Below are positions 42,046 to 58,388 of a DNA stretch of 64,000 bases, one piece after another; positions within the stretch are counted from its first letter, which is position 1, and each line of letters opens with the position of its first letter. Made by a program: the position numbers and the translations under genes. The notes under the pieces were generated by a model, which worked only from the letters and a program-made list of their open reading frames with translations, was not told where the DNA came from and made no database searches. The stretch is taken from NCBI GenBank assembly GCA_947495135.1, contig CANLXN010000009.1, positions 116,165-180,164 of the forward strand. Reading direction: 5' to 3'. This DNA comes from an uncultured Flavobacteriaceae bacterium. Lineage in GTDB: Bacteria; Bacteroidota; Bacteroidia; Flavobacteriales; Flavobacteriaceae.

Positions 42046-43464
42046 CTATTCAATTATTATTGGTTCAATAATACTTTTTCTTCTTACGGAGGTTTCACCG
42101 AAATGATATTTGATTCCTACTCCAAAGTTATAAAAGTAGTCATCTCTTTTCCCGTTTTCTACAAGATCTAATTCATCAGAAAACGAAATGTTTTGTTCGC
42201 CAAAGGCCTCCAGGCTAATTGCTGAAGAAAGATTGTAATTAACACCAAGTCCAAACCTAAGTCGCGGTGCAAGTCCAATATTTTTTACCATGTTATTTTG
42301 ACCATCTAAGTCGATTAAATACCCAAAACCAGCGTATAAAACAGGTGTAATATCATCGAGCGGAAGCACACTATATTCTATGTCCAATCCTACAGAAGCG
42401 AAATCTTTCGAAAAATCGTCTCCCGTTTCAAAGCGGTAAACCCCTCCATTTGCTATAAGGCTAAAATTCTTACTTACTCTTCTTGAGTAATTAATTTCAC
42501 CACTATAACCAAGTCTCTTCTTGGAGTAATCGCCATTAAGAATTGGAAATCCTAGGCTTAAACCTACTGCATCTTTGGAGGTTCTATCGATTTGTTTACG
42601 GTCGTAAAGTAACTTAGATTCTTCATAATCCTTTTCTTCTCGATATGCCTCAATTAGTTCATCATCTACACCATCTTTGGTAGACCAAAGATCATCTTCA
42701 ATACCTTCGATAATCAAGGACTCCACGGCTTTCTCTATAGCGTCTTTGAGAGCTAGTTCTACTGGCTCATTTTTAGTAAATCCAGTTTCTGCTTCTAATA
42801 GTCGTTGGAAATTTACATATCGAAAAACTCCTACATCTACTGCTTGAGATAGAATAGTTTTTGAAACATATACTGTTTTCAATATCCTTCCATTGGAAGT
42901 TGATACAGCGCGCAAGTAGACGGTAATTCTGTCTTGTCTATATTGCGTAGAACCGCCTACACCAAAATAGCGAGCTCCAGCACCTCCTGTAAGTATATTA
43001 GTATCATAGGAGATGATCCCTCCTTCTAATAATATACCTGCATAAAGCAATGGCGGTAAGTTAGGTTCGTTCGGATTTTTATTCTTTCTGTATTCATCCC
43101 TGGTAGAACGAATAATGTTTCTTTCATTTAGGAGGTTAGACAAGTTTTCTCGCTCAATAGTATTAAACCAACGAGAATCTTCTAACGCTTTTATAAGAAC
43201 TGTAGTCGCACCTTGTGGGACTGCAGTACTGAAGGTACTACCCGCTTCGGTACTTTTATATTGCCCTGTTTGATCCTTAAAGTTATAAACACCCACCACT
43301 ATTGGTTCGGCTGGCATTGGCAACTCACGTAAAATCTTAGTTCGTGGAGATAACTCCCCAGTTCTAGCAGGCTGTTGCGATACGGGTTGATTAAAATAAC
43401 TCCCACAACTAGTTGCCATTAAGCCACACCCAAGTATTGTCAAAAATTTCAGATAATGTTTCAT
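42046..43464 (-). CDS. csgG: Curli secretion channel CsgG with C-terminal beta-barrel extension
   Basis: Lipobox ATSC; VYNFKDQTGQYK, STAVPQGA, SRWF...ERENLSNLLNERNIIR, GGIISYDTN, GVGGSTQYRQD; start moved to MKHYLK. Confidence 0.93.
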   Translation of the reverse strand: MKHYLKFLTILGCGLMATSCGSYFNQPVSQQPARTGELSPRTKILRELPMPAEPIVVGVYNFKDQTGQYKSTEAGSTFSTAVPQGATTVLIKALEDSRWFNTIERENLSNLLNERNIIRSTRDEYRKNKNPNEPNLPPLLYAGILLEGGIISYDTNILTGGAGARYFGVGGSTQYRQDRITVYLRAVSTSNGRILKTVYVSKTILSQAVDVGVFRYVNFQRLLEAETGFTKNEPVELALKDAIEKAVESLIIEGIEDDLWSTKDGVDDELIEAYREEKDYEESKLLYDRKQIDRTSKDAVGLSLGFPILNGDYSKKRLGYSGEINYSRRVSKNFSLIANGGVYRFETGDDFSKDFASVGLDIEYSVLPLDDITPVLYAGFGYLIDLDGQNNMVKNIGLAPRLRFGLGVNYNLSSAISLEAFGEQNISFSDELDLVENGKRDDYFYNFGVGIKYHFGETSVRRKSIIEPIIIE

Positions 43465-43471
43465 GCAGCGT

Positions 43472-43870
43472 TTAATTTGGAACGATAATTTGCGTTTGTT
43501 CACCTGTGTTGGTGTCTAAGATATTTATGACTAATCCTTCGGCCGAATCAAAAATCTCTAGAGATAAGCTACCAAAGCTGAAAGATCCTTCTTCAAGCCC
43601 TTCGCCCAATTGCGAAGTAAATAAGCTTCTGGACAATTGCCCAAGGATTTGACGATTCAAATTAGCTGCAAACTCTTCGAGTTCTGTTCTATCCCTATCT
43701 TCAGCACTAGGGTCTGTGAAGGAGTTTTGAGCATTGGCAGAGGCCAGCAATTGCTGATACATAAAGGTATCTCCACCGCCAAAATTTGGATTCTTAGGTC
43801 TGTAGGATAGTTGTTGACCAACGCAAGCGCAAGTAAACAGAATACAAACCGTAGTGATAAGTATTTTCAT
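43472..43870 (-). CDS. csgF: Curli assembly protein CsgF
   Basis: QQLSYRPKNPNFGGG...LLASANAQN N-terminus; C-terminal TGEQTQIIVP. Confidence 0.92.
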   Translation of the reverse strand: MKILITTVCILFTCACVGQQLSYRPKNPNFGGGDTFMYQQLLASANAQNSFTDPSAEDRDRTELEEFAANLNRQILGQLSRSLFTSQLGEGLEEGSFSFGSLSLEIFDSAEGLVINILDTNTGEQTQIIVPN

Positions 43871-43881
43871 GGGTTTATTGA

Positions 43882-44703
43882 TTAGTAACGTTTAATTTTT
43901 TTTGAATCACGTTTTTGGCGTCGTAAATGCAAGCTTACTCTTGCCATGGTTGCGTCTTTCATTTTTTGAAGGTAGTCAATTCCTGGAATTGCGAAAAACC
44001 GAAAAACCAGTGTTTCCCCTACAAAAACTTCGATTCGAGTGTTTCGACCTACGCCTAACACTTCTTTAATTTTTATAATTTCTTCGGAATTGATATTGTT
44101 CTGTAGGTATTGACTATAGAACATCTGATAAAAATCTTTTCCTGGTTTCGTTTTTGTTTCTTCCAAAACAATGCCTGTAAGAACGATACCATCACCCCCA
44201 GCGCTTGCAACATCCTGACTGTCAATTTGTTTAGGCTGATTATCCGATTGATCATCTTGGACTACGCTAACAGCATCTGGATCGTTGTAAGATGGATTAT
44301 CGTTAATAACTACTCGATCCTTTCCTACCACTTGTTCATCTTGATTGTATATCAGTAATAGGATAATTATTCGATCCTGTGTATCTAGATTGATAGTCGT
44401 TTTGGCGAGATTGGCTTTTTCACCCGTGGCAAGTACAACCCTGCCAGATTGCTCATTCTTCGATTTATTTTTTGTTTCGGAATTTGTTCTGAAAACGGTA
44501 AATACATATTTCAGACTTTGACTCAATTGAGACTTATTGAAAGCCGATGTGGTAATTTCAATGAATTCGTAATTGGAGTCTAAATTGATTTTTGCCTCCA
44601 CCTCTGTATTATAGATCTGTGCATTCATGTTCTCAGTGGTTAAAGAGAGAAAAACGCAGGCTAATAAAAAGTAGGTAAAAGGGGTAGGCTTGCTAAAAAG
44701 CAT
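43882..44703 (-). CDS. csgE: CsgE-family protein with extra N-terminal CsgH-like beta domain
   Basis: C-terminal GIVLEETKTKPGKDFYQMFY is the CsgE motif; position between csgB and csgF. Confidence 0.78.
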   Translation of the reverse strand: MLFSKPTPFTYFLLACVFLSLTTENMNAQIYNTEVEAKINLDSNYEFIEITTSAFNKSQLSQSLKYVFTVFRTNSETKNKSKNEQSGRVVLATGEKANLAKTTINLDTQDRIIILLLIYNQDEQVVGKDRVVINDNPSYNDPDAVSVVQDDQSDNQPKQIDSQDVASAGGDGIVLTGIVLEETKTKPGKDFYQMFYSQYLQNNINSEEIIKIKEVLGVGRNTRIEVFVGETLVFRFFAIPGIDYLQKMKDATMARVSLHLRRQKRDSKKIKRY

Positions 44704-44708
44704 GAGGT

Positions 44709-45215
44709 TTAGAAATTTCGAACAATAACACTTTGCCCTTCACCTTGCATGGTGACTTTTAATTTTTCTGAAATACCATTTCCGCCATACCAGGTAAGGT
44801 TTTGGTTATTTCCATTTTGGATAATTTCTCCTTGAAGCGATTCAACATTTAACCCTGAGAAGTTAAGAACGCTGTTGTTATCTCCATTTTGAAGTATTTT
44901 TTCTTGAATAGTATTACCTCGAAGGTTTACATAAACATCATTATCGTCCCCTATTTGAACGAATTGAACATCACTTCTCTGAGACTGAACCCTTGCAGTG
45001 ATATCATTATTATTACCCACTTGTTGGATAAAAACAGAATTTCCATTAGAAGAAGTGGACATTTGTGAAGAATTCTGTGAAGACAAAAAGTTATTTTCAG
45101 AATTCTCTTGCTTGAAAGCATCAAGCGCTGTAGTAGTATCGTTATATGTTTGTCCAAAGCTAAGACTTGCTGTAAAAAGCATGGCTAGCATCAGGTATAT
45201 TTGTTTAGTCTTCAT
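44709..45215 (-). CDS. csgB: Minor curlin / nucleator-like (CsgB-like)
   Basis: 168 aa; signal peptide; degenerate QxGxxN repeats (QQVGNNN, VQIGDDN, LQNGDNN, IQNGNNQ) with basic residues; heads the secretion operon. Confidence 0.75.
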   Translation of the reverse strand: MKTKQIYLMLAMLFTASLSFGQTYNDTTTALDAFKQENSENNFLSSQNSSQMSTSSNGNSVFIQQVGNNNDITARVQSQRSDVQFVQIGDDNDVYVNLRGNTIQEKILQNGDNNSVLNFSGLNVESLQGEIIQNGNNQNLTWYGGNGISEKLKVTMQGEGQSVIVRNF

Positions 45216-45402: not shown

Positions 45403-46857
45403 TTAGTTGTTTTGTGTAACAGAAGAAACGTTTGAGTTTCCTACTTGGTTAACAGAACTCATGTGGTTGTTACCATTTTGGTCAACAGTACTTAAGTTGA
45501 AGTCTCCCATTTGGTTTACAACACTCATGTGCTGTAATCCATCTTGATCAACAGTACTAGAGTTAGCTAAACCATCTTGATCAACATCAGAGTTGTTCAT
45601 GTCTCCTGTTTGAGTAACTGCAGATCCATTAAGAGTTCCAATTTGATCAACATCAGAAACATTCATATCTCCTGTTTGAGTAGTGCTTGATCCGTTGCTG
45701 TTTCCAGTTTGAGAAACATCACTATCATTAGAATCACCAACTTGCTGAGTTACTTGCGTATTTAAGTCTCCGGTTTGAGCAACATCACTATCGTTTAGGT
45801 CCCCAATTTGAAGAACGAACGATCCATTGTTGTTTCCAGATTGAGCAACGAAAGACTCGTTATCATCTCCAAACTGACCTGTAGTAGAAGAGTTTCCGTT
45901 TCCAATTTGGTAGGTCTCAGCATCATTAGAGTTTCCTCCTTGTTGCGTTAACTGTCCATTGTTGTTTCCTTGCTGCTCAACATAACTAGCATTAGTATCC
46001 CCAGCTTGGATTACATCACTGTTGTTTTGGTTTCCAATTTGGAAAGTCAACGCATAGTTAGCGTTACCATCTTGGTCGATAGTACTGTTGTTATCGTTAC
46101 CGTACTGACCAGCACCGCCGTAGTTATCGTTACCGTCTTGGTCGATATCGGAAGTGTTGTTGTCACCAATTTGCTCGTTTTGACCCCAGTTGTTGTCTCC
46201 GTTTTGGTTTACATCACTATCGTTACCTACTCCAGTTTGCCAGATATCAGAGATGTTTCCATTTCCATTTTGATCTGCCAGTGCATCGTTCATGTTTCCG
46301 TTTTGCTCTACGTAAGAATCGTTGGCATCACCACCATATTGATTAACTAAAGAAACGTTATCATTCCCAGACTGATATACTTCACTTACATGGAAACCAT
46401 TTCCAGATCCGTATCCTTGGAATACATCACTATCGTTGTTGTTACCGTCTTGAGAAACAATGCTTGAGCTACTGAAGCCCCACTGATCTGTATAAGCGTC
46501 GTTATCAACACCAACTTGGTCTACATCACTAATATTATCATCTCCATCCTGCCAGATGAAGTTATTGTTAGTTGCACCACTTTGGTTTACAGAAGAAATG
46601 TTTCTATCTGAAAGCCCATCTCCACCTGGTCCACCACCAGTTTGTCTTGTCTCATTAGTGTTAGAAACACCATTTTGATCTACGGTTGAATCATTGTCGT
46701 CTCCAACAGAATCAACATCCGAAGAATTTGTTAGCCCAGTTTGAACCACTGAAGATGAATTACCACTTCCAATTTGATCCACTGTACTGACATTAAATTG
46801 CCCGAACATTACAGAGCCACACATTAGGGCCGCTGCGGTTAAAAATACATTTTTCAT
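45403..46857 (-). CDS. csgA: Long major curlin 1 (484 aa)
   Basis: Signal peptide, then continuous 11-residue QxGxxNxSxVx half-repeats ending QNN. Confidence 0.9.
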   Translation of the reverse strand: MKNVFLTAAALMCGSVMFGQFNVSTVDQIGSGNSSSVVQTGLTNSSDVDSVGDDNDSTVDQNGVSNTNETRQTGGGPGGDGLSDRNISSVNQSGATNNNFIWQDGDDNISDVDQVGVDNDAYTDQWGFSSSSIVSQDGNNNDSDVFQGYGSGNGFHVSEVYQSGNDNVSLVNQYGGDANDSYVEQNGNMNDALADQNGNGNISDIWQTGVGNDSDVNQNGDNNWGQNEQIGDNNTSDIDQDGNDNYGGAGQYGNDNNSTIDQDGNANYALTFQIGNQNNSDVIQAGDTNASYVEQQGNNNGQLTQQGGNSNDAETYQIGNGNSSTTGQFGDDNESFVAQSGNNNGSFVLQIGDLNDSDVAQTGDLNTQVTQQVGDSNDSDVSQTGNSNGSSTTQTGDMNVSDVDQIGTLNGSAVTQTGDMNNSDVDQDGLANSSTVDQDGLQHMSVVNQMGDFNLSTVDQNGNNHMSSVNQVGNSNVSSVTQNN

Positions 46858-47634: not shown

Positions 47635-47667
47635 TAAAAAAGAGCGACCCAATTATGAGTCGCTCTT
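47635..47667 (-). terminator. Terminator of curlin 2
   Basis: Minus strand GAGCGACTCATAATTGGGTCGCTCTTTTTT. Confidence 0.8.
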
Positions 47668-47716
47668 CATACTGATATTTAGAAAGTTTCAACTAAACTT
47701 TCCAAAGAATAATTAA

Positions 47717-49930
47717 TTAGTTGTTCTGAGTTACAGAAGAAGTATTGCTGTTTCCAATCTGGTTAACCGTACTTGTGTGGTTGTTTCCATTTTGATCAAC
47801 AGTACTTAAGTTGAAATCTCCAACTTGGTTAACAGTACTCATGTGCTGTAATCCGTCTTGGTCAACAGTGCTTGAGTTAGCCAAACCGTTTTGGTCTACA
47901 TCACTCATGTTCATATCTCCTGTTTGAGTAACTGCAGATCCGTTAAGAGTTCCAGTTTGGTCAACATCAGAAATGTTCATGTCTCCTGTTTGAGTAGTAC
48001 TAGATCCGTTGCTGTTTCCGTTTTGAGAAACATCGCTATCGTTAGAGTTACCTACTTGCTGAGTTACTTGCGTATTCAAATCTCCGTTTTGGTCAACATC
48101 GCTATCGTTTAAATCTCCAATTTGAAGAACGAAAGATCCGTTGTTGTTTCCAAACTGTCCAACGTTAGAGCTGTTATTGTCTCCAAACTGTCCAGTAGTA
48201 GATCCGTTTCCGTTTCCGTACTGCTGTACAAAGCTAAAGTTAGTATCTCCATCCTGCACAGTAAGGTTACCATTGCTGTTTCCGAACTGATCTACTAAAC
48301 TAAAGTTAGAGTCACCATCTTGATCTACTTGAGAATTGTTAGTTAATCCAATTTGAGAAACTAAAGATTCGTTAAAGTCACCATCTTGATCAACATCACT
48401 GTTGTTAGCGGTACCGTCTTGTCCAACAAAAGAATCGTTGTTGTCTCCAGTCTGGTCTACATCACTTACGTGATCGTCTCCACCAGCTCCAAAGTATCCC
48501 TGTAATACTTCAGAGTTGTTGTTATCTCCAATAGAAGTAACTGAACTACTATTATTGTTTCCAATTTGCTCTACGTTAGAAGTGTTCATGTTTCCGAACT
48601 GTTGAACAACACTACCGTTGTCGTTTCCTAATTGGTTTACAGCAGAAACGTTGTTGTCTCCTGTGTATCCTTGTTGTACAAAAGAGTTGTTGTTATCTCC
48701 AGTAGAAGTTACGTCAGACTCGTTAGTTACACCAATTTGTCCTACAAAAGAGCTGTTACCGTTTCCAACCTGATCTACGTCAGAATCGTTAGCAGTACCG
48801 TCTTGTCCAACAAAAGAATCGTTGTTGTCTCCAGTCTGGTCTACATCACTTACGTGATCGTCTCCACTTACGAAGTATCCTTGAAGAACTTCAGAAGTAT
48901 TGCTGTTTCCATTTTGGTCAACAGTACTCATGTTGTTATTTCCAATTTGCTCTACAATAGAACCGTTACTATCTCCAAACTGCCCAACATAACTATCGTT
49001 AGTCATTCCTGTTTGTAGAACAGTAGATCCATTGCTGTTTCCAAACTGATCTGTCCAGCTACTGTTAGAATCTCCGTTTTGGTCTGTACTAGCAGAGTTA
49101 GAATCTCCGAAAGACTGAACTACAGAAAAGTTGCTGTTTCCATCTTGGTCTGTGTCATTCGTATTTAAGTTTCCTACTTGAGCAACATACGAATAGTTAC
49201 TGTCTCCAGTCTGGTCTACAGTACTAGTATTGCTGTCTCCAGTGAATCCCTGATAAGACTGAGAAGTGTTAGCATCACCATTTTGGTTGATAGTACTTGT
49301 GTTAGCATTACCATCTTGCCACATTTGAGAGGAATTACTATCTCCTGTTTGATCTGTAAAGCTAGAGTTAGAATTTCCTGTTTGATCCTCATCAGAAACG
49401 TTTAAATCTCCATTTTGAGTTACAAAAGAAACATTCCCATTCCCTAATTGGTCTTGCGTAGAATCATTCATGTCTCCTACTTGAGCGTTGTAACCAATGT
49501 TACCATCACCTGTTTGAGTGATTGCAGAATTATTGTCATCAGACCCATCAGTATCTCCGTACTGATCGATATGACCAACGTTTGCATTACCAGATTGAGT
49601 TACAGAACCAACGTTGTTATCATTAACAGAAGCCCCACCACCAAAACCTTGGTGTACGTCTGCTTCGTTATTATTTCCAGTTTGAAGAACATCAGCTTCG
49701 TTTCCGTTACCTAATTGGTCAACATCGTTATTGTTAGCGTCTCCTAACTGATCTACGTCAGAATCGTTGTTGTCTCCAACTTGGTCTACCGTAGAAACGT
49801 TTACCGCACCGGTCTGGTCAACATCGGATGCATTACCGTTACCAGTCTGATTGACTGCGCTGTTGTTAAATTGTGCGAACGCCACTGCTCCAATGAACAT
49901 TGCCGCTACACTTAATACTACTTTTTTCAT
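47717..49930 (-). CDS. csgA: Long major curlin 2 (737 aa)
   Basis: MKKVVLSVAAMFIGAVAFA|QFN; about 60 half-repeats; ends QNN. Confidence 0.92.
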   Translation of the reverse strand: MKKVVLSVAAMFIGAVAFAQFNNSAVNQTGNGNASDVDQTGAVNVSTVDQVGDNNDSDVDQLGDANNNDVDQLGNGNEADVLQTGNNNEADVHQGFGGGASVNDNNVGSVTQSGNANVGHIDQYGDTDGSDDNNSAITQTGDGNIGYNAQVGDMNDSTQDQLGNGNVSFVTQNGDLNVSDEDQTGNSNSSFTDQTGDSNSSQMWQDGNANTSTINQNGDANTSQSYQGFTGDSNTSTVDQTGDSNYSYVAQVGNLNTNDTDQDGNSNFSVVQSFGDSNSASTDQNGDSNSSWTDQFGNSNGSTVLQTGMTNDSYVGQFGDSNGSIVEQIGNNNMSTVDQNGNSNTSEVLQGYFVSGDDHVSDVDQTGDNNDSFVGQDGTANDSDVDQVGNGNSSFVGQIGVTNESDVTSTGDNNNSFVQQGYTGDNNVSAVNQLGNDNGSVVQQFGNMNTSNVEQIGNNNSSSVTSIGDNNNSEVLQGYFGAGGDDHVSDVDQTGDNNDSFVGQDGTANNSDVDQDGDFNESLVSQIGLTNNSQVDQDGDSNFSLVDQFGNSNGNLTVQDGDTNFSFVQQYGNGNGSTTGQFGDNNSSNVGQFGNNNGSFVLQIGDLNDSDVDQNGDLNTQVTQQVGNSNDSDVSQNGNSNGSSTTQTGDMNISDVDQTGTLNGSAVTQTGDMNMSDVDQNGLANSSTVDQDGLQHMSTVNQVGDFNLSTVDQNGNNHTSTVNQIGNSNTSSVTQNN

Positions 49931-50131
49931 AATTTGTGAAGTTTTAAATAAAGGTTACTATACTAGTTGTATTGGTTTTAATTTATGTTTGATTTGTTCT
50001 TAAATTAACTTTTTCGCGCTTCTTTAACCCACATGTAAAACACCAGCGCTTATTTGTAGCTGATCGTTAAAACAGTGACTTTAAAAAAAATTGTTGAGGA
50101 GGAAGAGTCAGTTGTTTAAATTGGTAATTAG

Positions 50132-50317
50132 TTGCATGTCAAAGGTGCAACAAAAACTAATACCTGCTATACGTACAAACACTTAGTACCGTATTTATCG
50201 AATTGTTTTGAAGGAAAATTCCTCATTTGTTGTTTATGGTATTCCGACAGACTTCACAATTTGACCGACAAACTACGCGATTGTATACAAATTACACATT
50301 TGTTAAAATTTTGTTAA
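50132..50317 (-). promoter_or_regulatory. Curlin promoter module, copy 2
   Basis: CCGAC repeats at 50244/50265; TGTTAA at 50301/50312; minus-strand CACCTTTG (-7-like). Confidence 0.7.
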
Positions 50318-50520
50318 AAAACAAACGATAACGTTGTAGAAATAATCATCCTCGACAAACTGTAAAATATTATCGCTCAATAGAATGGCTAGCAAATTCT
50401 ATTCCTACAAATATTCATGAACGAAGCTTTTTTGGAGGTAAGCATATTTCAGAAAAAAATACTTCTTTGGTATTTATAAACATCAATCCTATTTTATGGG
50501 TCGATTGTTCAAATTGTTTA

Positions 50521-50556
50521 AAAAAAAAGCGCAAATCATTAAAGACTTACGCTTTT
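50521..50556 (-). terminator. Terminator of curlin 3
   Basis: AAAAGCG...CGCTTTT with poly-U on the minus strand. Confidence 0.65.
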
Positions 50557-50590
50557 ACCAACAAACTAACTTTTAGTGGCTACTAAACTC

Positions 50591-52237
50591 CTAGTTGTTT
50601 TGAGAAACATAAGAAGTGTTGTTATTTCCAACTTGGTTCACCGTACTTGAATGGTTGTCACCGTTTTGATCAACAGTACTTAAGTTATAGTCGCCCATTT
50701 GATAAACGGTGCTCATATGCTCTAAACCATCTTGATCTACTGTGCTTGAGTTAGCCATCCCATTTTGGTAAACGTCGCTAACATTCATATCGCCTGTTTG
50801 GGTAACTGCAGATGCATTAAGAGTTCCTGTTTGATCTACGTAAGATATATTCATATCTCCTGTTTGAGCGGTGCTCGATCCGTTGCTATTTCCGGTTTGG
50901 TCTACATAACTGGTATTCATGTAACCAACTTGCTCAGTAACTTGCGTGTTTAGGTCTCCGTATTGATCTACATAACTTGCGTTCATATCCCCAATTTGCA
51001 GAACGAAAGATCCGTTGTTGTTTCCATACTGCGCTACATTGGAAGTGTTTTCATATCCATACTGTCCTACACTAGATGCATTTCCATTACCAGTTTGGTT
51101 TACTTCGCTATAGTTAGCTTCACCTTCCTGATACGTTAAACTACCATTGTAATTTCCGGTTTGGTTGACATCGCTCAAGTTATAATCACCTTCTTGATCC
51201 ACCGTAGAGTAGTTGCCCTCTCCATTCTGCGCTACAGAAGACTCATTTGCTTCGCCATACTGATACACTTCAGATTCGTTGTAATCTCCATCTTGCGCTA
51301 CTAAAGAAACATTTTCATCTCCTGTTTGATCGGTATAGCTATCGTTATAGTTTCCAATTTGAGTAACGGCTGATGCATTATAATCGCCATACTGACTCGT
51401 ATAATTTGAGTTATAATCTCCTTCTTGCGCAACAATGCTGCTGTTATATGCTCCTTCCTGATAAACTTCAGAATCGTTAGCCTCTCCAACTTGCAGGACT
51501 AATGAAGCATTGTAATCACCATACTGATCTACTTCCGAGTAGTTATCCTCACCATCTTGACCAACTAAAGACAAGTTTTCATCCCCAGTTTGATACACAT
51601 TACTATCGTTATAGTTTCCAATTTGTACCACTGCAGACACATTGTAGTTTCCATCTTGTTCTGTATAACTTGTATTGTAATCTCCAGTCTGCGTTTCACT
51701 AGATGTATTGAAATCGCCGTACTGCTCTACTTCCGTCTCATTAGCGTTACCCAATTGATCTTGTGTAGAACTGTTGTAGTCACCTTCTTGGCTATTAAAT
51801 GCGTAATTATCATCTCCTGTTTGGTAAATGGCAGAATCGTTATAATCAGATCCATTGCTACCACCTTCTTGGTCAATGTGACCCTCATTGTCGTTTCCAG
51901 ATTGAGTTACTGAAGCAACGTTATAGTCGTTGTCGCCAGCACCAGAACCAAAACCTTGATGTATGTCTGCTTCGTTGTAATCTCCATTCTGAAGAACATC
52001 TGCTTCGTTACCATCACCGAGCTGATCTACATCACTGTTGTTATAGGCTCCAACCTGCTCTACATTAGCGTAGTTGTAATCTCCATATTGGTCTACAGTA
52101 GAACCATTATATGCTCCCACCTGATATACGTCTGAAACATTTTCGTTTCCAGTTTGTTGAACTGCGTTGTCATTAAATTGGGCGAAAGCTACTGCGCCGA
52201 TTAGCATTGCTGCTACACTTAAAATTCTCTTTTTCAT
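50591..52237 (-). CDS. csgA: Long major curlin 3, Tyr/Glu-enriched (548 aa)
   Basis: Same signal peptide and repeat frame; QYGDYN-type repeats; about 49 Tyr by manual count. Confidence 0.92.
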   Translation of the reverse strand: MKKRILSVAAMLIGAVAFAQFNDNAVQQTGNENVSDVYQVGAYNGSTVDQYGDYNYANVEQVGAYNNSDVDQLGDGNEADVLQNGDYNEADIHQGFGSGAGDNDYNVASVTQSGNDNEGHIDQEGGSNGSDYNDSAIYQTGDDNYAFNSQEGDYNSSTQDQLGNANETEVEQYGDFNTSSETQTGDYNTSYTEQDGNYNVSAVVQIGNYNDSNVYQTGDENLSLVGQDGEDNYSEVDQYGDYNASLVLQVGEANDSEVYQEGAYNSSIVAQEGDYNSNYTSQYGDYNASAVTQIGNYNDSYTDQTGDENVSLVAQDGDYNESEVYQYGEANESSVAQNGEGNYSTVDQEGDYNLSDVNQTGNYNGSLTYQEGEANYSEVNQTGNGNASSVGQYGYENTSNVAQYGNNNGSFVLQIGDMNASYVDQYGDLNTQVTEQVGYMNTSYVDQTGNSNGSSTAQTGDMNISYVDQTGTLNASAVTQTGDMNVSDVYQNGMANSSTVDQDGLEHMSTVYQMGDYNLSTVDQNGDNHSSTVNQVGNNNTSYVSQNN

Positions 52238-52409
52238 AAATGAGGTTTTAAAATTAAATTGATTAAAAAATATACTTAGTGTACTAATTCAATAAGTTAT
52301 GAGTGTATGTACCACTCTGGAGAATCCATCAGATTTGACTCTGAAAGACATTCCATTGCTTTTAGGATTTAAAATTTCGAGGAGAATTGGTATTCGTTGT
52401 AATCCTTTG

Positions 52410-52594
52410 CTGCGGTTCAAAGATGCTGCAAAAACTAATTCCCAGAATACGCGTATACACTTACCTACCGCGATTTTAACAATTTTTGTAGGAGAATACG
52501 GTGATTTTATTTTTCAACCCATCGACAGAAACGAATAAAAATCGGCCAAAAGCGCAAATTTGCAATTTTTGGCTAAATGTTAAAATTATGTAAA
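52410..52594 (-). promoter_or_regulatory. Curlin promoter module, copy 3
   Basis: TTCAAAGATG (minus CATCTTTG), ATACGCGTATACACTTA, TTGTAGGAG, ATCGACAGA, TGTTAA/TGTAAA at 52578/52589. Confidence 0.65.
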
Positions 52595-52981
52595 TTACCT
52601 ACAGTATCATTTTAAAAATGTAAAACCAACGTTTAAAAACTAAATTAATCGACAAAAAACACAGCCAACGCTTGCCTTTTTCTTAGAAAAATGACTAAAA
52701 AATCAATTATTACAAATGAAAGAAATAAAACGAATCGAAACCAGGTTCTTCTTGACGCTAAAAAAGCTCATTAATAATAGAAATGGAATGGAACATATTG
52801 GAACTATTATTACAACCGCTCCAAATCTGATTGTAAGACCAGGGTCCCTTTAGAGTTAGGATACGTTTCAACTTTTAGAATAGATTAGTTTCTTCAGTAT
52901 AACAGCTACTGGCTCATGGTTGGATCGATAGAGAAAGACCCTAAAGAAGTAAGAATCGAAAAATACGCAATATGATTGCAT

Positions 52982-53013
52982 AAAAAAAGAGCGACTCATT
53001 GCGAGTCGCTCTT
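52982..53013 (-). terminator. Terminator of curlin 4
   Basis: AAAAAAAGAGCGACTC-ATTGC-GAGTCGCTCTT; near-identical to the curlin 2 terminator. Confidence 0.85.
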
Positions 53014-53057
53014 GATACTGAAAACTAGAAAGCCTAAAACTTTCTCTAGAATAATTA

Positions 53058-55160
53058 TTAGTTGTTCTGAGTTACAGAAGAACTGTTGTTGTTTCCAATT
53101 TGGTTAACCGTACTTGTGTGGTTGTTACCGTTTTGGTCAACTGTACTTAAGTTGAAGTCTCCAACTTGGCTTACCGTACTCATGTGTTGGAATCCATCCT
53201 GATCTACTGTACTTGAGTTAGCCAAACCATCTTGGTCAACATCACTCATGTTCATGTCTCCTGTTTGAGTCACTGCAGATCCGTTAAGAGTTCCAGTTTG
53301 ATCAACATCAGATATGTTCATGTCTCCTACTTGAGTAGTGCTAGATCCGTTGCTGTTTCCGTTTTGAGAAACATCACTATCGTTAGAATCACCAATTTGC
53401 TGAGTTACTTGCGCATTTAAATCTCCAGTTTGAGCAACATCACTATCGTTTAAATCTCCAATTTGAAGAACGAAAGAGCTATTGTTGTTTCCAACCTGAT
53501 CAACATTAGAACCGTTATTGTTTCCAAATTGTCCTGTAGAAGAACCGTTACCGTTTCCAGTTTGGTTGACTAAGCTAAAGTTAGTATCTCCTTGTTGCAT
53601 AGTAAGGTTTCCGTTAGCGTTACCAATTTGAGCAACTGAACTATTGTTACCGTTTCCAGTTTGGTCTACATCACTGTTGTTAAAGTCTCCATCTTGCTCA
53701 ACATAAGAAATGTTATCATCTCCAAGCTGATCTACAGTAGAAGTGTTGTCGTTAGAATCAAAAGTCTGATAAACCTCAGAACGGTTACGATCTCCCGTTT
53801 GTTGAACAGAACTGTTGTTGTTGTTTCCAATGTATCCTTGGATAGCATAAGAGTAGTTATTGTCTCCAGTTTGATCTACATCAGAAACATTGTTGTCTCC
53901 TCTCTGCCCTAAAATAGCAGTGTTAGCATTTCCTGTTTGATCGGTATCGCTAATGTTGCTATCTCCAAATTGCCAAGTAAGACCGTAGTTATTGTCTCCT
54001 GTTTGAGTGATATCAGATTCTCCATTCGTAGATTCAAATCCAGCACCTAATATTGCGTTTCCTTGATCTACATCCACAACGTTTCCATTACCAAACTGAT
54101 CTACATCAGAATCGTTATCGTCTCCGTATGCTTCAACATCTGCAGTGTTATTGTCTCCTTGTTGGTTGATATCAGAATTGTTATCAAAACCACGTTGAGC
54201 CATTAAGCTTGTGTTATTGTCTCCCGTTTGATCTGTATCACTATCGTTGTCATCACCTTCTTGATACTCTGTAGAAACATTGCTGTTTCCTTCTTGATCT
54301 ACATTAGAATCGTTATCGTCTCCAATTTGATCTGTATCTGCAGCATTGAAGTTACCGTGCTGATCGATGTCAGAATCGTTTCCGTTTCCTAATTGATCAA
54401 TACTAGCAACGTTGTCGCTAGAAGTCCTTCCAGAACCGTCTGAGAAACGCTGATCGATATGACCATCGTTATCATCTCCTAATTGATATACAGTTGCATC
54501 GTTGTTGTTGTTTCCAGTTGGGCTAGAAAAACCACCTTGGTGTACATCTGAAGAGTTGTCATTTCCAAACTGCTCTACGAATGAGTTGTTCCCATCACCG
54601 TCTTGAATAACATCACTTACATTATCGTCTCCTTGCTGATCTACCCATGAACTATTTGCGTTCCCATCTTGATCTACATCAGATTCGTTTGTAACACCAA
54701 TTTGACCTACGAAAGAGAAGTTTCCGTCTCCGTCTTGATCTACATCACTGTCGTTAGCTGTACCATCCTGTCCTACGAAAGAAAAGTTACCATCGCCTGT
54801 TTGATCTACATCACTTACGTGATCGTTTCCACCTGCGAAATATCCTTGAAGTACTTCCGAAGAGTTGTTATCTCCGGTAGAAGTAACATCAGATTGGTTG
54901 TTTTCTCCAAATTGCTCTACAGTAGAAGTGTTAGCGTCTCCAACCTGATCTACATCAGAATCGTTAGATACACCAACTTGGTCTACGTCAGAACCGTTGT
55001 TGTCTCCTGTTTGATCAACAGTAGAAACGTTCGTCATTCCTGTTTGATCTACATCAGATCCATTACCTGAACCAGTCTGATTGACTGTGCTCACGTTAAA
55101 TTGTGCAAATGCTGTTGCTCCAATGAACAATGCCGCTGCACTTAATACTACTTTTTTCAT
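53058..55160 (-). CDS. csgA: Long major curlin 4 (700 aa)
   Basis: True start MKKVVLSAAALFIGATAFA at 55160; repeats end QNN. Confidence 0.92.
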   Translation of the reverse strand: MKKVVLSAAALFIGATAFAQFNVSTVNQTGSGNGSDVDQTGMTNVSTVDQTGDNNGSDVDQVGVSNDSDVDQVGDANTSTVEQFGENNQSDVTSTGDNNSSEVLQGYFAGGNDHVSDVDQTGDGNFSFVGQDGTANDSDVDQDGDGNFSFVGQIGVTNESDVDQDGNANSSWVDQQGDDNVSDVIQDGDGNNSFVEQFGNDNSSDVHQGGFSSPTGNNNNDATVYQLGDDNDGHIDQRFSDGSGRTSSDNVASIDQLGNGNDSDIDQHGNFNAADTDQIGDDNDSNVDQEGNSNVSTEYQEGDDNDSDTDQTGDNNTSLMAQRGFDNNSDINQQGDNNTADVEAYGDDNDSDVDQFGNGNVVDVDQGNAILGAGFESTNGESDITQTGDNNYGLTWQFGDSNISDTDQTGNANTAILGQRGDNNVSDVDQTGDNNYSYAIQGYIGNNNNSSVQQTGDRNRSEVYQTFDSNDNTSTVDQLGDDNISYVEQDGDFNNSDVDQTGNGNNSSVAQIGNANGNLTMQQGDTNFSLVNQTGNGNGSSTGQFGNNNGSNVDQVGNNNSSFVLQIGDLNDSDVAQTGDLNAQVTQQIGDSNDSDVSQNGNSNGSSTTQVGDMNISDVDQTGTLNGSAVTQTGDMNMSDVDQDGLANSSTVDQDGFQHMSTVSQVGDFNLSTVDQNGNNHTSTVNQIGNNNSSSVTQNN

Positions 55161-55392
55161 AATGTGAAGTTTTTTAAAAAAGGTTACTATACTAGTTGTA
55201 TGTAGCTGAAAAAGTTGTGAATTTTTCAGCATTTCAAATATTAGGATAAATATTTATTCCTACATACGTAGTAACACGTACTGTAGGAATACCCAATAAA
55301 TTAAATAGGAAATTACTGATAAAAAAGTCAATTTAATCGGTATAATTATATTTTTAATGGCTCAAAAACACAATTTCCTACAAAACCCTATA

Positions 55393-55409
55393 TGTTAAAT
55401 TTATGTTAA
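55393..55409 (-). promoter_or_regulatory. TGTTAA-N5-TGTTAA direct repeat upstream of curlin 4
   Basis: TGTTAAATTTATGTTAA; same 11-bp period as the other copies. Confidence 0.6.
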
Positions 55410-56433: not shown

Positions 56434-56465
56434 TCTCAAAGTAAATAATATATTGGTAATATATC

Positions 56466-58388
56466 TTAGTTGTTTTGAGTAACTGTAGAACCATTCATGT
56501 TTCCAATCTGGTTTACTGTACTAGTGTGGTTGTTACCATTTTGACTTACATCACTGTTGTTCATGTTACCATCTTGTAACACAGTACTCATGTGAGAAAG
56601 ACCAGTTTGTCCAACAACACTTGTGTTATCGTCACCCATTTGATCTACATCTGAAGTATTCATATCTCCAGTCTGAACTACGTCTGAATCATTTCTGTCT
56701 CCAGTTTGGTCTACATCTGAAACATTCAGGTCTCCAGCTTGTTCAACATAACTTTCGTTATCGTCACCCATTTGATCTACCGTAGAAAGGTTGTCGTTAG
56801 ATCCAAAAGTTTGGTATACATAAGACTCGTTTCCGTCCCCTGTTTGCTGAACTGAACTATTGTTGTTATTTCCAACATATCCTTGAATAGCATAAGAGAA
56901 GTTATCGTCCCCTGTTTGATCCACATCAGAAACGTTGTTGTCTCCTCTTTGACCCAAGATAGCACTGTTACCATCCCCTGTTTGGTCGGTATCGCTAATG
57001 TTGCTATCTCCAAATTGCCATGTAAGACCGTAGTTGTTATCTCCTGTTTGAGTGATATCAGACTCACCATTAGTCGATTCAAATCCAGCTCCTAATCCTG
57101 AATTTCCTTGATCAACGTCTACTTCATTGTTGTCACCAATTTGATCTACATCAGAATTGTTATCGTCTCCAAATGCTTCAACATTAGAAATGTTGCTATC
57201 TCCTGTTTGATCTACTCTAGAGAAGTTTGCATCTCCTTGTTGGATCATAGTACTGGCGTTCATATCTCCAGTTTGCCAAGTGTAACTGTTGTTCAGGTCA
57301 CCTATTTGATCTTCATCTGAAGTGTTAGAATCACCAAATTGGTTGTTACGGCTAAAGTTGTTGTCTCCTGTTTGGTCAATTGTAGACATGTTCATGTCTC
57401 CAGACTGTTGGATCGTACCACTGTTAGAATCTCCTGTTTGAGTTACAGCTCCGTTGTTATCATCTGCACCGTCTGCAGAGAATAATTGGTAAACGTTACC
57501 ACTGTTTCCATTACCTGTTTGAGTAATAGCAGAAACATTGTTGTCGTTGTCCTCAGTAGAAACACCTGTTAAACCTTGCCAAGATACAGCAACGTTGTTA
57601 TCACCTGTTTGCATAACATCAGACTCATTTCCGTTACCTAATTGCTCAGTTAATGAAGTGTTAGAGTTTCCGTTTTGGTCAACATCAGAGTTGTTAGAGT
57701 CTCCTCTTACAATAAGATCTGCGCTATTAGAATCACCAAATTGATCTACCGTACTTACGTTAGAGTTTCCAGTTTGAGACATTGAATTAGCGTTGAAATC
57801 ACCAGACTGGCTTGTAAAGCTAGAGTTAGAGTCACCTATTTGATCCTCATCTGAAGCGTTGTTATCTCCATTTTGAATAACGAAAGAGGTGTTTAAGTTT
57901 CCAACTTGGTCTTGAGTAGAACCATTCATGTCACCTACTTGAGAATTATACCCAAAGTTATCATCTCCTGTTTGGTTAATTGCAGAGTTGTTATCGTCAG
58001 ACCCATCTGTATCACCGTACTGGTCGATGTGACCTGTGTTTCCATTCCCAGATTGAGTTACAGAACCTACGTTGTTGTCATTAATTGAAGCACCAGTACC
58101 AAAACCTTGGTGTACGTCTGCTTCGTTGTTATCTCCTGTTTGAAGAACATCGGCTTCGTTTCCGTTACCTAATTGATCTACGTCGTTGTTGTTAGAGACA
58201 CCTACCTGATCAACATCAGAATCGTTGCTGTCTCCTACTTGATCAACTGTAGAAGCGTTCGTCGCTCCTGTTTGGTCAACATCAGATCCGTTTCCGTTTC
58301 CTGTTTGATTGACAGTACTCACGTTAAATTGTGCAAAAGCCACTGCTCCAATGAACATAGCTGCTACACTTAATACTACTTTTTTCAT
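56466..58388 (-). CDS. csgA: Long major curlin 5 (640 aa)
   Basis: Same signal peptide as curlin 2; repeats end QNN. Confidence 0.92.
   Translation of the reverse strand: MKKVVLSVAAMFIGAVAFAQFNVSTVNQTGNGNGSDVDQTGATNASTVDQVGDSNDSDVDQVGVSNNNDVDQLGNGNEADVLQTGDNNEADVHQGFGTGASINDNNVGSVTQSGNGNTGHIDQYGDTDGSDDNNSAINQTGDDNFGYNSQVGDMNGSTQDQVGNLNTSFVIQNGDNNASDEDQIGDSNSSFTSQSGDFNANSMSQTGNSNVSTVDQFGDSNSADLIVRGDSNNSDVDQNGNSNTSLTEQLGNGNESDVMQTGDNNVAVSWQGLTGVSTEDNDNNVSAITQTGNGNSGNVYQLFSADGADDNNGAVTQTGDSNSGTIQQSGDMNMSTIDQTGDNNFSRNNQFGDSNTSDEDQIGDLNNSYTWQTGDMNASTMIQQGDANFSRVDQTGDSNISNVEAFGDDNNSDVDQIGDNNEVDVDQGNSGLGAGFESTNGESDITQTGDNNYGLTWQFGDSNISDTDQTGDGNSAILGQRGDNNVSDVDQTGDDNFSYAIQGYVGNNNNSSVQQTGDGNESYVYQTFGSNDNLSTVDQMGDDNESYVEQAGDLNVSDVDQTGDRNDSDVVQTGDMNTSDVDQMGDDNTSVVGQTGLSHMSTVLQDGNMNNSDVSQNGNNHTSTVNQIGNMNGSTVTQNN

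What the first reader, a model, noticed from the sequence alone, without database searches (positions are those of the whole stretch)
50591..52237. One curlin paralog has been systematically converted to tyrosine
Curlin 3 is collinear with curlin 2 at both ends but has about 49 Tyr in 548 aa (about 9%) versus about 10 in 737 aa, plus more Glu. Substitutions fall at recurring repeat positions (QYG, GDYN, VYQ, SYV), which would stack into Tyr ladders on the beta-solenoid. Possible roles, all inferred: lateral bundling as in ice-nucleation proteins, dityrosine or DOPA cross-linking and adhesion, or redox/charge transport.
Basis: partly seen in the sequence, partly recalled or inferred. Interest (0 to 1): 0.72.

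Follow-up and report, generated by a model that had tools for sequence, protein, structure and literature searches.

The report
Tyrosine-coated curli fibre subunit paralogue
One of five tandem curli (bacterial amyloid fibre) subunit genes in a marine flavobacterium keeps its fibre core unchanged but has many outward-facing residues replaced by tyrosine and glutamate, so it probably builds a fibre with a different, stickier surface; this is a new variation on a known theme, not a new kind of system.

Summary
The ORF at 50591-52237 (- strand, 548 aa) is an intact curlin with 49 Tyr (8.9%). Its four tandem paralogues have exactly 10 Tyr each (1.4-2.1%), and 14 curlins from six syntenic Flavobacteriaceae loci have 0.7-2.9%.

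All 46 Tyr that lie in canonical 11-residue units (Q-x-G-x-x-N-x-S-x-V-x) sit at solvent-exposed positions and never at the core Q, G, N, S or V.

The Tyr are derived. In the conserved termini, this paralogue carries 56 lineage-specific replacements against 17 in the others combined, and 15 of its 56 are changes to Tyr.

The gene is old (synonymous sites saturated) and under purifying selection. Environmental variants give 20 synonymous against 5 replacement changes, and no Tyr is lost.

"Tyr ladders" are only weakly supported: runs reach at most 3 rungs, and stacking is not above chance (P=0.12).

The clearer pattern is face-specific recoding. The acidic flank becomes Tyr+Glu, the Phe flank becomes aliphatic, and 39% of the arc x5 positions are Tyr, while net charge density is unchanged.

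Best reading: a surface-chemistry specialist curlin that changes fibre adhesion and cohesion. Cross-linking, ice nucleation and conduction remain untested, and conduction is disfavoured.

Novelty: new variant of a known kind.

The parts
50591..52237 (-). A3: Tyr-rich curlin (CsgA-type) paralogue, 548 aa plus stop
   Evidence: ORF. Pfam Curlin_rpt E=5.5e-70 with 17 stretches. 49 Tyr. AF2 pLDDT 90.1 as a beta-solenoid. Homology to solved curlin 8C50, E=4e-31.
52178..52237 (-). Signal peptide, residues 1-20 (MKKRILSVAAMLIGAVAFAQ)
   Evidence: Read directly from the sequence. It is shared with all paralogues. AF2 gives a low-confidence helix at residues 1-17.
51824..52177 (-). N-terminal conserved repeat block, residues 21-138; holds 10 Tyr
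   Evidence: Residues 1-138 are 71% identical to A1 and A4. A3 has 38 unique replacements here, 9 of them to Tyr.
51032..51823 (-). Central block, residues 139-402: 24 uninterrupted 11-mers with 29 Tyr (11%). One flank is Tyr+Glu/Asp, the other aliphatic, and x5 arc positions are mostly Tyr.
   Evidence: Flank Tyr 10/36 against 1/36 (P=0.006). Aliphatic residues 2/36 against 18/36 (P=4e-5).
50594..51031 (-). C-terminal conserved block, residues 403-548; holds 10 Tyr, including a 3-rung x9 ladder (Y422, Y444, Y466) and a 2-rung x11 ladder (Y490, Y512)
   Evidence: 76-81% identical to A2, A4 and A5. A3 has 18 unique replacements here, 6 to Tyr, of which 4 are D to Y. Ladders.
50525..50556 (-). 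Terminator-like hairpin plus T-run, about 35 nt after the A3 stop codon
   Evidence: A2, A4 and A5 each have a similar hairpin, which implies separately terminated transcripts.
56466..58388 (-). A1: curlin paralogue, 640 aa, 10 Tyr
53058..55163 (-). A2: curlin paralogue, 701 aa from the conserved MKK start (the ORF extends upstream to 55232), 10 Tyr
47717..49930 (-). A4: curlin paralogue ('curlin 2' of the finding), 737 aa, 10 Tyr
45403..46857 (-). A5: curlin paralogue, 484 aa, 10 Tyr
44709..45215 (-). Short degenerate curlin-like protein (168 aa), candidate nucleator (CsgB analogue)
   Evidence: It holds QxGxxN repeats. A protein of similar size occupies the same position before csgE in all syntenic loci. 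It has no Pfam or NCBIfam hit, so the role is inferred.
42046..44703 (-). csgE (43882-44703), csgF (43472-43870) and csgG with a C-terminal OMP barrel extension (42046-43503): the secretion and assembly machinery
   Evidence: Pfam CsgE 5e-8, CsgF 1e-29, CsgG 2e-67 plus OMP_b-brl.

Best explanation
A3 is an intact, secreted CsgA-type curlin of the centrosymmetric class. It is one of five tandem paralogues served by one CsgB-like/CsgE/CsgF/CsgG machinery in a marine, biofilm-associated member of the Flavobacteriaceae.

Its amyloid core (Q1, G3, N6, S8, V10 of each 11-residue half-repeat) is fully conserved, so it should fold into the same two-sheet beta-solenoid and stack head-to-tail. Because its terminal repeats stay 71-81% identical to those of its paralogues, it could also polymerise together with them.

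What changed is the solvent-exposed surface:
- The flank that is an Asp grid in the paralogues (S-D-V-D) became a mixed Tyr/Glu/Asp flank, with about one Tyr per strand.
- The flank that carries Phe in the paralogues became aliphatic (Ala, Leu, Val, Ile).
- The first strand residue after each arc (x5, G-D-Y-N) is Tyr in 39% of units.
- Net negative charge density stayed at 15%.

The most likely consequence is a fibre, or a fibre segment, with altered adhesion and cohesion. Tyr gives versatile contacts (pi, hydrogen-bond, hydrophobic) to organic surfaces, polysaccharides or neighbouring fibres. The acid grid that mediates divalent-cation bridging and mineral nucleation in a related curlin is thinned, with about a quarter of its positions taken by Tyr.

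Shown here: gene integrity, fold prediction, positional restriction of Tyr, derived direction of change, purifying selection.
Inferred: secretion, co-assembly, and the adhesive or cohesive role.
For: Family and context:
- Pfam Curlin_rpt hit, with CsgE, CsgF and CsgG adjacent.
- Homology to the cryo-EM curlin 8C50, E=4e-31.
- AF2 pLDDT 90.1 and pTM 0.83, with 9-residue strands every 11 residues.

Position of the Tyr:
- 44 of 46 Q-x-G-anchored units are perfect 11-mers. Tyr occurs only at x2, x4, x5, x7, x9 and x11.
- Sleutel et al. 2023 define these as outward-facing '$' and arc positions (PMC10192328).

Direction of change:
- The paralogues lack Tyr at 46 of the 49 A3 Tyr columns; A4 has D, N, S or F at 35 of them.
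- A3 has 56 unique replacements against 17 in the others combined, with 15 to Tyr and 7 to Glu.
- 7 of 15 changes away from Asp went to Tyr, against 1/8 expected (P=0.001).
- Third-codon-position T content is not raised, so mutation bias is not the cause.
- 14 curlins in six syntenic Flavobacteriaceae loci have 0.7-2.9% Tyr.

Selection:
- dN/dS is about 0.06-0.15 where dS could be estimated; two of the A3 comparisons were too saturated to give a value.
- Metagenome variants give 20 synonymous against 5 non-synonymous changes after removing 3 paralogue cross-mappings. Four synonymous changes fall inside Tyr codons and none replaces a Tyr.

Face specificity and charge:
- Face-specific recoding.
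- Net negative charge density is 15.0%, against 13.2-15.8% in the paralogues.

Functional analogies from the literature:
- The D/E grid of Pontibacter R15.5 mediates fibril sheets and Ca-phosphate encrustation (PMC10192328).
- In simulations Tyr gives the strongest adhesion of CsgA to both polar and non-polar surfaces (PMC5262458).
- Extra csgA copies were proposed to modulate fibre physicochemistry (PMC3521004).

Habitat: the sequence is held by marine, biofilm and macroalgae metagenomes.
Against: - There is no expression data; no RNA run holds the sequence.
- No orthologue of A3 was found in any other genome or in 1.84 billion cluster representatives, so conservation of individual Tyr across species cannot be tested.
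- Synonymous sites are saturated, so a formal positive-selection test is impossible.
- 8.9% Tyr is only twice the local proteome average and lies within the range of other ORFs in the window, 1.6-9.2%.
- A few distant curlins reach 8-9% Tyr.
- The adhesive or cohesive role is inference.
Confidence: 0.6

Rival explanations
1. Cross-linkable fibre. The exposed Tyr are substrates for oxidative coupling (dityrosine) or hydroxylation to DOPA, which would lock fibres covalently to each other or to surfaces, as in resilin, spore coats or mussel adhesives.
For: - High density of exposed Tyr on the arcs and one flank.
- Neighbouring Tyr one turn apart do occur, 12 pairs.
- The habitat is marine biofilm and macroalgae. 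That such settings supply peroxide and haloperoxidases is my own general knowledge.
- Engineered Tyr/DOPA curli adhesives exist (reviews found).
Against: - No tyrosinase, laccase, peroxidase or haloperoxidase was found among the 30 window ORFs scanned.
- The Tyr on the flank are staggered, one per strand, not paired.
- Nothing in the sequence distinguishes a modified from an unmodified Tyr.
Confidence: 0.13
2. Assembly modulator. Replacing surface Asp 'gatekeepers' with Tyr makes A3 a faster-nucleating or templating subunit (a primer, branch point or cap) that tunes polymerisation of the other four curlins instead of presenting a new surface.
For: - Asp gatekeepers temper CsgA nucleation through their negative charge (PMC9900396).
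- A3 lost about 40% of its Asp relative to the paralogues.
- The conserved termini suggest co-assembly.
- Codon usage is distinct and the leader differs, which suggests separate regulation.
Against: - Net negative charge density is unchanged at 15.0%, because Glu was gained. The charge that underlies gatekeeping is therefore retained.
- A3 is as long and regular as a bulk subunit, with 44 half-repeats.
Confidence: 0.15
3. No special function. The Tyr excess is a by-product of relaxed constraint or mutation bias in a redundant paralogue.
For: - A3 evolves about three times faster at the protein level than its paralogues combined.
- Exposed positions of curlins tolerate many residues, Tyr included (PMC10192328).
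- Codon usage is less biased.
Against: - The core motif is perfectly kept and the array is the most regular of the five.
- Population variants are 20 synonymous against 5 non-synonymous, with no Tyr lost.
- dN/dS is at most 0.15 wherever dS could be estimated.
- T is not in excess at third codon positions.
- The substitutions are directional (P=0.001-0.016) and face-specific (P=0.006).
- Charge is compensated by Glu.
Confidence: 0.07
4. Continuous aromatic ladders serve long-range electron transport or INP-like ordered lateral bundling and ice nucleation.
For: - Tyr at fixed repeat positions.
- Short ladders exist at x5, x9 and x11.
- The even-lag pair counts are slightly higher: 12 pairs at lags 2 and 4 against 9 at lags 1 and 3.
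Against: - The longest Tyr run is 3 rungs, and rows are interrupted by Glu, Ala, Asp or Gly.
- Lag-2 stacking is not above chance (P=0.12).
- No Trp and almost no Phe are present to fill the gaps.
- The protein has no TxT-type water-ordering motif, judged by my reading of the units.
- The Tyr-bearing flank switches sheets at about residue 400.
Confidence: 0.04

Closest known systems
Pontibacter korlensis curlin R15.5 (PDB 8C50; Sleutel et al. 2023, PMC10192328)
   Same: - Bacteroidota origin and centrosymmetric class of curlin.
- Many near-identical half-repeats with the motif N-$-Psi-$-Psi-$-Q plus X-G-X-X arcs.
- Direct sequence homology, E=4e-31.
- Very acidic, with one solvent-exposed flank forming a regular grid of side chains that controls lateral fibre contacts.
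   Different: - The R15.5 grid is pure Asp/Glu. In A3, 10 of 36 grid positions in the central block are Tyr, the opposite flank is aliphatic, and the arcs carry Tyr.
- A3 has about 22 turns against 15.5.
- A3 is one of five tandem paralogues.
E. coli CsgA/CsgB curli system
   Same: - Curlin_rpt repeats.
- Genetic linkage to csgE, csgF and csgG.
- A Sec signal peptide.
- A predicted beta-solenoid amyloid subunit.
   Different: - The E. coli protein is non-centrosymmetric with 5 repeats and has an N22 targeting segment and CsgC/CsgD partners.
- Here there are about 22 turns and no recognisable N22.
- Neither csgC nor csgD turned up among the 30 window ORFs scanned; Dueholm et al. report that Bacteroidetes lack both, Spirosoma's csgD homologue excepted.
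- CsgG carries an extra OMP barrel.
- NCBIfam CsgA and CsgB models both hit the protein, through repeats only, so the two roles cannot be told apart.
Multi-copy csgA/B loci (Dueholm et al. 2012, PMC3521004; Sleutel et al. 2023)
   Same: - Genomes with up to 6 (Dueholm) or up to 30 (Sleutel) curlin homologues are known.
[quoted passage not shown]
   Different: Neither of these two papers contains the word 'tyrosine', and a full-text search for 'tyrosine-rich' plus 'curli' found no natural Tyr-rich curlin. A3 gives a concrete, statistically supported example of such a paralogue.
TARA Oceans relative, curlin T4 (L002 10001-11536)
   Same: - Same syntenic cassette and the same 11-mer family.
- It is the Tyr-richest of four curlins in its locus, at 6.7%.
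   Different: - It is the orthologue of A2, not of A3.
- Its Tyr replace Phe on the non-acidic flank, while the acidic flank stays pure Asp.
- Tyr enrichment of one paralogue therefore looks like it arose twice, by different routes.
Engineered aromatic/Tyr or DOPA-bearing CsgA materials
   Same: Both place Tyr or other aromatics on the outside of an unchanged curli core to change adhesion or conductivity (reviews found; simulation in PMC5262458).
   Different: Those are laboratory constructs, usually terminal fusions. A3 is a natural protein with the residues built into the repeat surface.

Membership tests
Curlin (CsgA/CsgB-type, Pfam PF07012) | Repeated Curlin_rpt matches above the gathering score | tested here: met
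   E=5.5e-70, 231 bits against a cut-off of 20.7, 17 stretches.
Curlin (CsgA/CsgB-type, Pfam PF07012) | Half-repeat motif N-$-Psi1-$-Psi2-$-Q joined by X-G-X-X arcs | tested here: met
   In 44 11-mers: Q1 44/44, G3 44/44, N6 42/44, S8 36/44, V10 33/44. The motif definition is from PMC10192328.
Curlin (CsgA/CsgB-type, Pfam PF07012) | Two-sheet beta-solenoid fold | tested here: met
   AF2 gives pLDDT 90.1, with a 9-residue strand every 11 residues. Sequence homology to the cryo-EM structure 8C50. Foldseek against the PDB returned only weak generic beta-helix hits (E of at least 0.15), so the structural match itself is unconfirmed.
Curlin (CsgA/CsgB-type, Pfam PF07012) | Encoded next to csgE, csgF and csgG, and carries a signal peptide | tested here: met
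   CsgE, CsgF and CsgG at 42046-44703. The N-terminus MKKRILSVAAMLIGAVAFAQ was read directly; no signal-peptide predictor was available.
Curlin (CsgA/CsgB-type, Pfam PF07012) | Secreted through CsgG and polymerised into amyloid fibres | not testable with these tools
   Needs expression, ThT or Congo-red binding and electron microscopy.
Centrosymmetric (CS) class of curlins (Sleutel 2023) | Core-facing residues of motif a and motif b are (near) identical | tested here: met
   Every 11-mer has the same core, so odd and even units are equivalent.
CsgA versus CsgB assignment | Separate equivalog models or a nucleator-specific terminal repeat | tested here: inconclusive
   NCBIfam CsgB (240 bits) and CsgA (156 bits) both hit through repeats. 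Dueholm 2012 states the two are separable only in Gammaproteobacteria. Length and array position favour a major-subunit role.
Tyr-ladder beta-solenoids (INP-like lateral bundling) | Continuous same-position Tyr ladder along the solenoid | tested here: not met
   The longest run is 3 rungs. Lag-2 Tyr pairs number 12 against 8.9 expected, P=0.12.
Oxidatively cross-linked Tyr/DOPA structural proteins | A dedicated oxidase (tyrosinase, laccase or peroxidase) linked to the substrate gene | tested here: not met
   None among 30 ORFs of the window scanned with Pfam. The rest of the genome was not available.
Oxidatively cross-linked Tyr/DOPA structural proteins | Dityrosine or DOPA present in the mature protein | not testable with these tools
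   Needs fluorescence, NBT staining or mass spectrometry.
Conductive aromatic-stack filaments | Uninterrupted chain of closely spaced aromatic rings along the fibre | tested here: not met
   The x5 rows read D A Y Y D A Y Y Y G Y ... and Y F Y E Y Y Y E A Y ..., and the flank Tyr are staggered.

The most novel reading that the evidence does not exclude
A3 is a natural 'functionalised amyloid'. The cell would deliberately display a dense array of Tyr on an inert curli scaffold so that the fibre can be covalently cured (dityrosine or DOPA) by environmental or bacterial oxidants, or can bind crystalline or algal polysaccharides through CH-pi stacking. It could also be mixed with the four acidic paralogues as a block copolymer. 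That would be a natural counterpart of engineered Tyr/DOPA curli glues, and a case of paralogue arrays encoding programmable fibre surfaces.
Probability: 0.15. Interest if true: 0.7.

Novelty: new variant of a known kind. Interest (0 to 1): 0.45.

Why it matters
Curli are the best-understood functional amyloids and a main chassis for engineered living materials. What the many extra curlin copies in environmental bacteria do is still an open question.

This locus offers a clean natural experiment. It has five paralogues with the same core and termini, and one of them has its surface rewritten towards Tyr/Glu on one flank and aliphatics on the other, with charge held constant.

If the surface change alters adhesion, bundling, mineralisation or cross-linking, three things would follow:
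- Paralogue arrays would be shown to act as a toolkit for fibre surface chemistry.
- The result would give design rules for which positions tolerate which residues.
- It would provide a ready-made Tyr-rich scaffold.

If the surface change has no such effect, the locus is simply another divergent curlin.

Tried and rejected
- Searching for orthologues of A3 led nowhere.
  - The word-indexed protein search found nothing above 35% identity.
  - The exhaustive HMMER search of 1.84 billion representatives found nothing above 44%.
  - The scan of 185,579 species genomes found only a 36% Photobacterium hit.
  - Exact-sequence look-ups failed.
  - The metagenome scan gave one syntenic TARA relative, but its Tyr-richer curlin is the A2 orthologue.
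- A dN/dS test for positive selection was abandoned because synonymous sites between A3 and its paralogues are saturated (pS 0.59-0.76).
- Foldseek against the PDB gave only insignificant generic beta-helix hits.
- Tandem Repeats Finder found no recent DNA-level repeat inside A3. The 8-unit internal duplication (residues 194-281 against 282-369) shows only at protein level by my own inspection, has a counterpart in A4, and cannot explain most Tyr, because only 5 Tyr are shared between the two copies.
- Mutation bias towards T was rejected.
- I looked for Tyr-modifying enzymes in the window and found none.
- RNA evidence: no run holds the sequence.
- Rfam and tRNA scans of the window were empty.
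- The sigma-70 promoter scan found fewer sites than the shuffled controls (33 against a mean of 45.6); Bacteroidota also use a different promoter type (own knowledge).
- Other Tyr-rich curlins in the databases (P0203, P0143, P0015) are of the degenerate class and carry Phe and Trp as well, so they are not comparable.
Full report
**1. What is at the coordinates**

The ORF at 50591-52237 on the minus strand encodes a 548-aa protein. It matches Pfam Curlin_rpt with E=5.5e-70 over 17 stretches.

It is the third of five tandem curlin genes:
- A1, 56466-58388
- A2, 53058-55163
- A3, 50591-52237 (the finding)
- A4, 47717-49930
- A5, 45403-46857

Downstream follow a short degenerate curlin-like gene (44709-45215), then csgE, csgF, a csgG with a C-terminal outer-membrane barrel extension, and a CarboxypepD_reg/fn3 protein that starts with a lipoprotein-like signal sequence. 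Glutamine synthetase III lies upstream.

The same cassette, in the same place between GSIII and an AIRS-like gene, occurs in Altibacter, Zeaxanthinibacter, Bizionia, Dokdonia and a TARA Oceans scaffold, with one to four curlins per locus. The best GSIII matches (84-87% identity) include Altibacter, Aureisphaera, Ulvibacter and Patiriisocius. The window therefore comes from a poorly sampled marine member of the Flavobacteriaceae. The A3 DNA itself is held by marine, biofilm and macroalgae metagenomes.

**2. The observation**

- A3 has 49 Tyr (8.9%), 32 Glu, 6 Phe and 0 Trp.
- A4 has 10 Tyr in 737 aa and 9 Glu.
- A1, A2 and A5 also have 10 Tyr each.

Against the paralogue rate of 1.56% the excess has P=4e-22. 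Against the 4.5% Tyr of 35 non-curlin ORFs of the window it has P=6e-6. A3 is thus about 5.7-fold richer in Tyr than its sisters but only twofold richer than the local proteome.

Fourteen curlins from six syntenic loci have 0.7-2.9% Tyr. The four TARA curlins have 4.0-6.7%. Among 217 more distant curlin homologues the median is 2.5%, the 95th percentile is 6.0%, and two reach 8.9-9.3%. Those two are irregular, degenerate-class proteins that are also rich in Phe and Trp.

Contigs from three metagenomes reproduce A3 at about 98.5-100% identity, which rules out an assembly artefact.

**3. Anatomy**

A3 is the most regular of the five paralogues. Forty-four of its 46 Q-x-G-anchored units are exactly 11 residues long, Q1-x2-G3-x4-x5-N6-x7-S8-x9-V10-x11. 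Core conservation is Q1 44/44, G3 44/44, N6 42/44, S8 36/44 and V10 33/44.

This is the N-$-Psi1-$-Psi2-$-Q motif with X-G-X-X arcs described by Sleutel et al. In that scheme the Psi, N and Q residues face the steric zipper and the '$' residues are solvent-exposed. Because both half-repeats are the same, A3 belongs to their centrosymmetric class (PMC10192328).

AlphaFold2 predicts a confident solenoid (pLDDT 90.1, pTM 0.83), with a 9-residue strand every 11 residues and breaks at G3-x4. A3 is homologous in sequence to the cryo-EM structure of Pontibacter korlensis curlin R15.5 (8C50, E=4e-31). Foldseek against the PDB returned only insignificant beta-helix hits.

All 46 Tyr in canonical units lie at x2 (8), x4 (2), x5 (17), x7 (5), x9 (7) or x11 (7). 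None lies at a core position.

**4. Direction and age of the change**

In the five-way alignment, only three of the 49 Tyr columns of A3 hold Tyr in any paralogue. A4 has N (13), D (12), S (5), F (5), V (4) and others there.

A3 is 71-81% identical to its sisters in the two conserved terminal blocks. There it carries 56 replacements found in no other paralogue. The other paralogues have 17 such replacements between them. Fifteen of A3's 56 are to Tyr and seven are to Glu, and none of the 17 is to Tyr (Fisher P=0.016). Seven of the 15 changes away from Asp went to Tyr, where one in eight single-step paths would (P=0.001).

Third-codon-position T is not elevated in A3 (39% against 41-43%), so a strand-specific mutation bias is unlikely.

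A3 is not a recent conversion. Synonymous differences to every paralogue are saturated (pS 0.59-0.76), while dN/dS, where it could be estimated, is roughly 0.06-0.15.

At population level, metagenome contigs show 28 single-base differences. Three of them reproduce the paralogue residues and come from short, mismatch-rich contigs, so I treat them as cross-mapping. The remainder are 20 synonymous and 5 non-synonymous. Four synonymous TAC/TAT changes fall inside Tyr codons, and no Tyr is replaced. The gene is therefore maintained by selection.

**5. Ladders, or something else?**

Two 11-mers make one turn, so a ladder needs the same position to be Tyr in units i and i+2. There are 12 such pairs, against 8.9 expected when residues are shuffled within each position (P=0.12). 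The longest runs have three rungs: x5 twice, and x9 once in the C-terminal block at Y422, Y444 and Y466. Ladders exist, but they are short and no more frequent than the Tyr density predicts.

A clearer pattern appears when the two sheets are separated. In the uninterrupted central block (residues 139-402):
- One flank reads Y/E/D: 10 Tyr, 14 acidic and 2 aliphatic residues out of 36.
- That flank never has two Tyr in one strand (at most one each; P=0.015 for no doubling).
- The other flank is aliphatic or small: 1 Tyr, 4 acidic and 18 aliphatic residues out of 36.
- The contrasts are significant: Tyr P=0.006, aliphatic P=4e-5.

Aligned to A4, the Tyr/Glu flank corresponds to the paralogues' acidic S-D-V-D flank. 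The aliphatic flank corresponds to their Phe-bearing S-F-V-G flank. Aromatic residues therefore left one flank and appeared on the other and on the arcs.

In the C-terminal block the acidic flank lies on the other sheet in all paralogues, and A3's Tyr follow it there.

Net negative charge density is unchanged: 15.0% in A3 against 13.2-15.8% in the paralogues. Glu was gained as Asp was lost.

**6. Mechanism**

*Shown.* A3 is an intact curlin with an unchanged core and a recoded surface. It is kept by purifying selection. It has its own terminator-like hairpin (50556-50525), and its leader lacks an 18-nt block shared by A1, A2 and A4.

*Inferred.* A3 is exported and nucleated by the shared Csg machinery. 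It forms fibres alone or as blocks within mixed fibres, because the terminal repeats that form the subunit interface are conserved.

*Likely effect.* For the related R15.5 curlin, the regular Asp/Glu grid on one flank mediates divalent-cation-dependent side-by-side packing and nucleates calcium phosphate (PMC10192328). A3 replaces about a quarter of that grid with Tyr. In simulations of CsgA, Tyr is one of only two residues that contribute strongly to adhesion on both polar and non-polar surfaces (PMC5262458). The most economical reading is that A3 supplies a fibre surface with different adhesive and cohesive behaviour in a marine biofilm.

I put about 0.85 on the structural description and about 0.6 on the whole statement including the role.

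**7. Rivals**

- *Oxidative cross-linking (dityrosine or DOPA)* is possible but unsupported. No oxidase lies in the window, and the flank Tyr are staggered.
- *An assembly-modulator role through loss of Asp gatekeepers* (PMC9900396) is weakened by the preserved charge density.
- *Neutral drift or mutation bias* is contradicted by the intact core, the 20:5 ratio of synonymous to non-synonymous variants, the directionality and the face specificity.
- *Electron transport or INP-like ordered bundling* needs continuous aromatic rows, which are absent.

**8. Comparison and novelty**

A3 is a member of the curlin family: every testable defining feature is met. What appears undescribed is a paralogue whose exposed positions are recoded towards Tyr in a face-specific, charge-compensated way. 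A full-text search for 'tyrosine-rich' with 'curli' found no natural example. The two survey papers, and a 2026 analysis of 33,564 CsgA-like homologues, contain no occurrence of 'tyrosine', 'Tyr' or 'aromatic' among the terms I searched in each.

The TARA relative has a Tyr-enriched curlin too. It is the A2 orthologue, and its Tyr replace Phe on the non-acidic flank. Enrichment of one paralogue in Tyr may therefore have arisen twice by different routes.

This is a new variant of a known kind. It is interesting for amyloid and biofilm materials research but is not a new type of system.

Noticed in passing
window 42046-58388; loci L002, L004, L005, L007, L008, L009, L010, L011: The whole curli cassette (1-5 curlins, a CsgB-like gene, csgE/F/G and a CarboxypepD_reg lipoprotein) sits between GSIII and an AIRS-like gene in many Flavobacteriaceae. 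It is absent in Aureisphaera (L009), and two T9SS-cargo genes take its place in a widespread MAG (L010). It behaves like a variable cassette at a fixed site.
   Followed up: partly
window 42046-43503: CsgG is 485 aa and carries a C-terminal OMP_b-brl domain with a weak PorG-like match, which E. coli CsgG (277 aa) lacks. The same fusion is annotated in loci L004 and L006.
   Followed up: no
window 40520-42043: A 507-aa lipoprotein with a CarboxypepD_reg domain, an fn3-like domain and a probable beta-propeller (Tricorn/Dpp5-like) directly follows csgG in every syntenic locus. It is a candidate conserved accessory factor of flavobacterial curli.
   Followed up: no
window 36899-39171: Three tandem paralogous ORFs of about 245 aa (28-33% identical to each other) encode polytopic membrane proteins with no Pfam or NCBIfam family. 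They lie between the AIRS-like gene and prfA. They are weakly similar (24-26%) to ORFs at the same position in the Altibacter-like loci L008 and L011, and are absent from the TARA locus.
   Followed up: partly
window 47165-47221 and 50266-50322; 52238-52549: The curlin genes are separated by spacers of 0.66-1.2 kb, and A2-A5 each end in a terminator-like hairpin. A 57-nt element (84% identical) lies about 340 nt upstream of A5 and of A4. A3's leader lacks the block ACAACTAGTATAGT shared by A1, A2 and A4.
   Followed up: partly
window 50591-52237: A3's codon usage differs from its paralogues: Asn AAC is 58% against 71-79%, and GGC occurs 8 times against 0-3. This could mean lower or different expression.
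   Followed up: no
L002 10001-11536 (TARA scaffold): Curlin T4 (6.7% Tyr, 18% Asp) alternates a Tyr/Phe flank (YFG, SYS, YYS, YDY, YEY) with a pure Asp flank (DDD). This is a sharper two-faced design than A3's, and the locus also carries two CsgB-like genes.
   Followed up: partly
window 53058-55232: The A2 ORF extends 23 codons upstream of the conserved MKKVVLS start. The start at 55163 is the likely true one.
   Followed up: no
L011 672-5235: In the Altibacter-like genome GCA_021651095.1, a CD-NTase gene and a TIR-STING effector gene (a CBASS-type defence pair) sit next to a phage-type integrase about 5 kb upstream of the GSIII-curli region.
   Followed up: no
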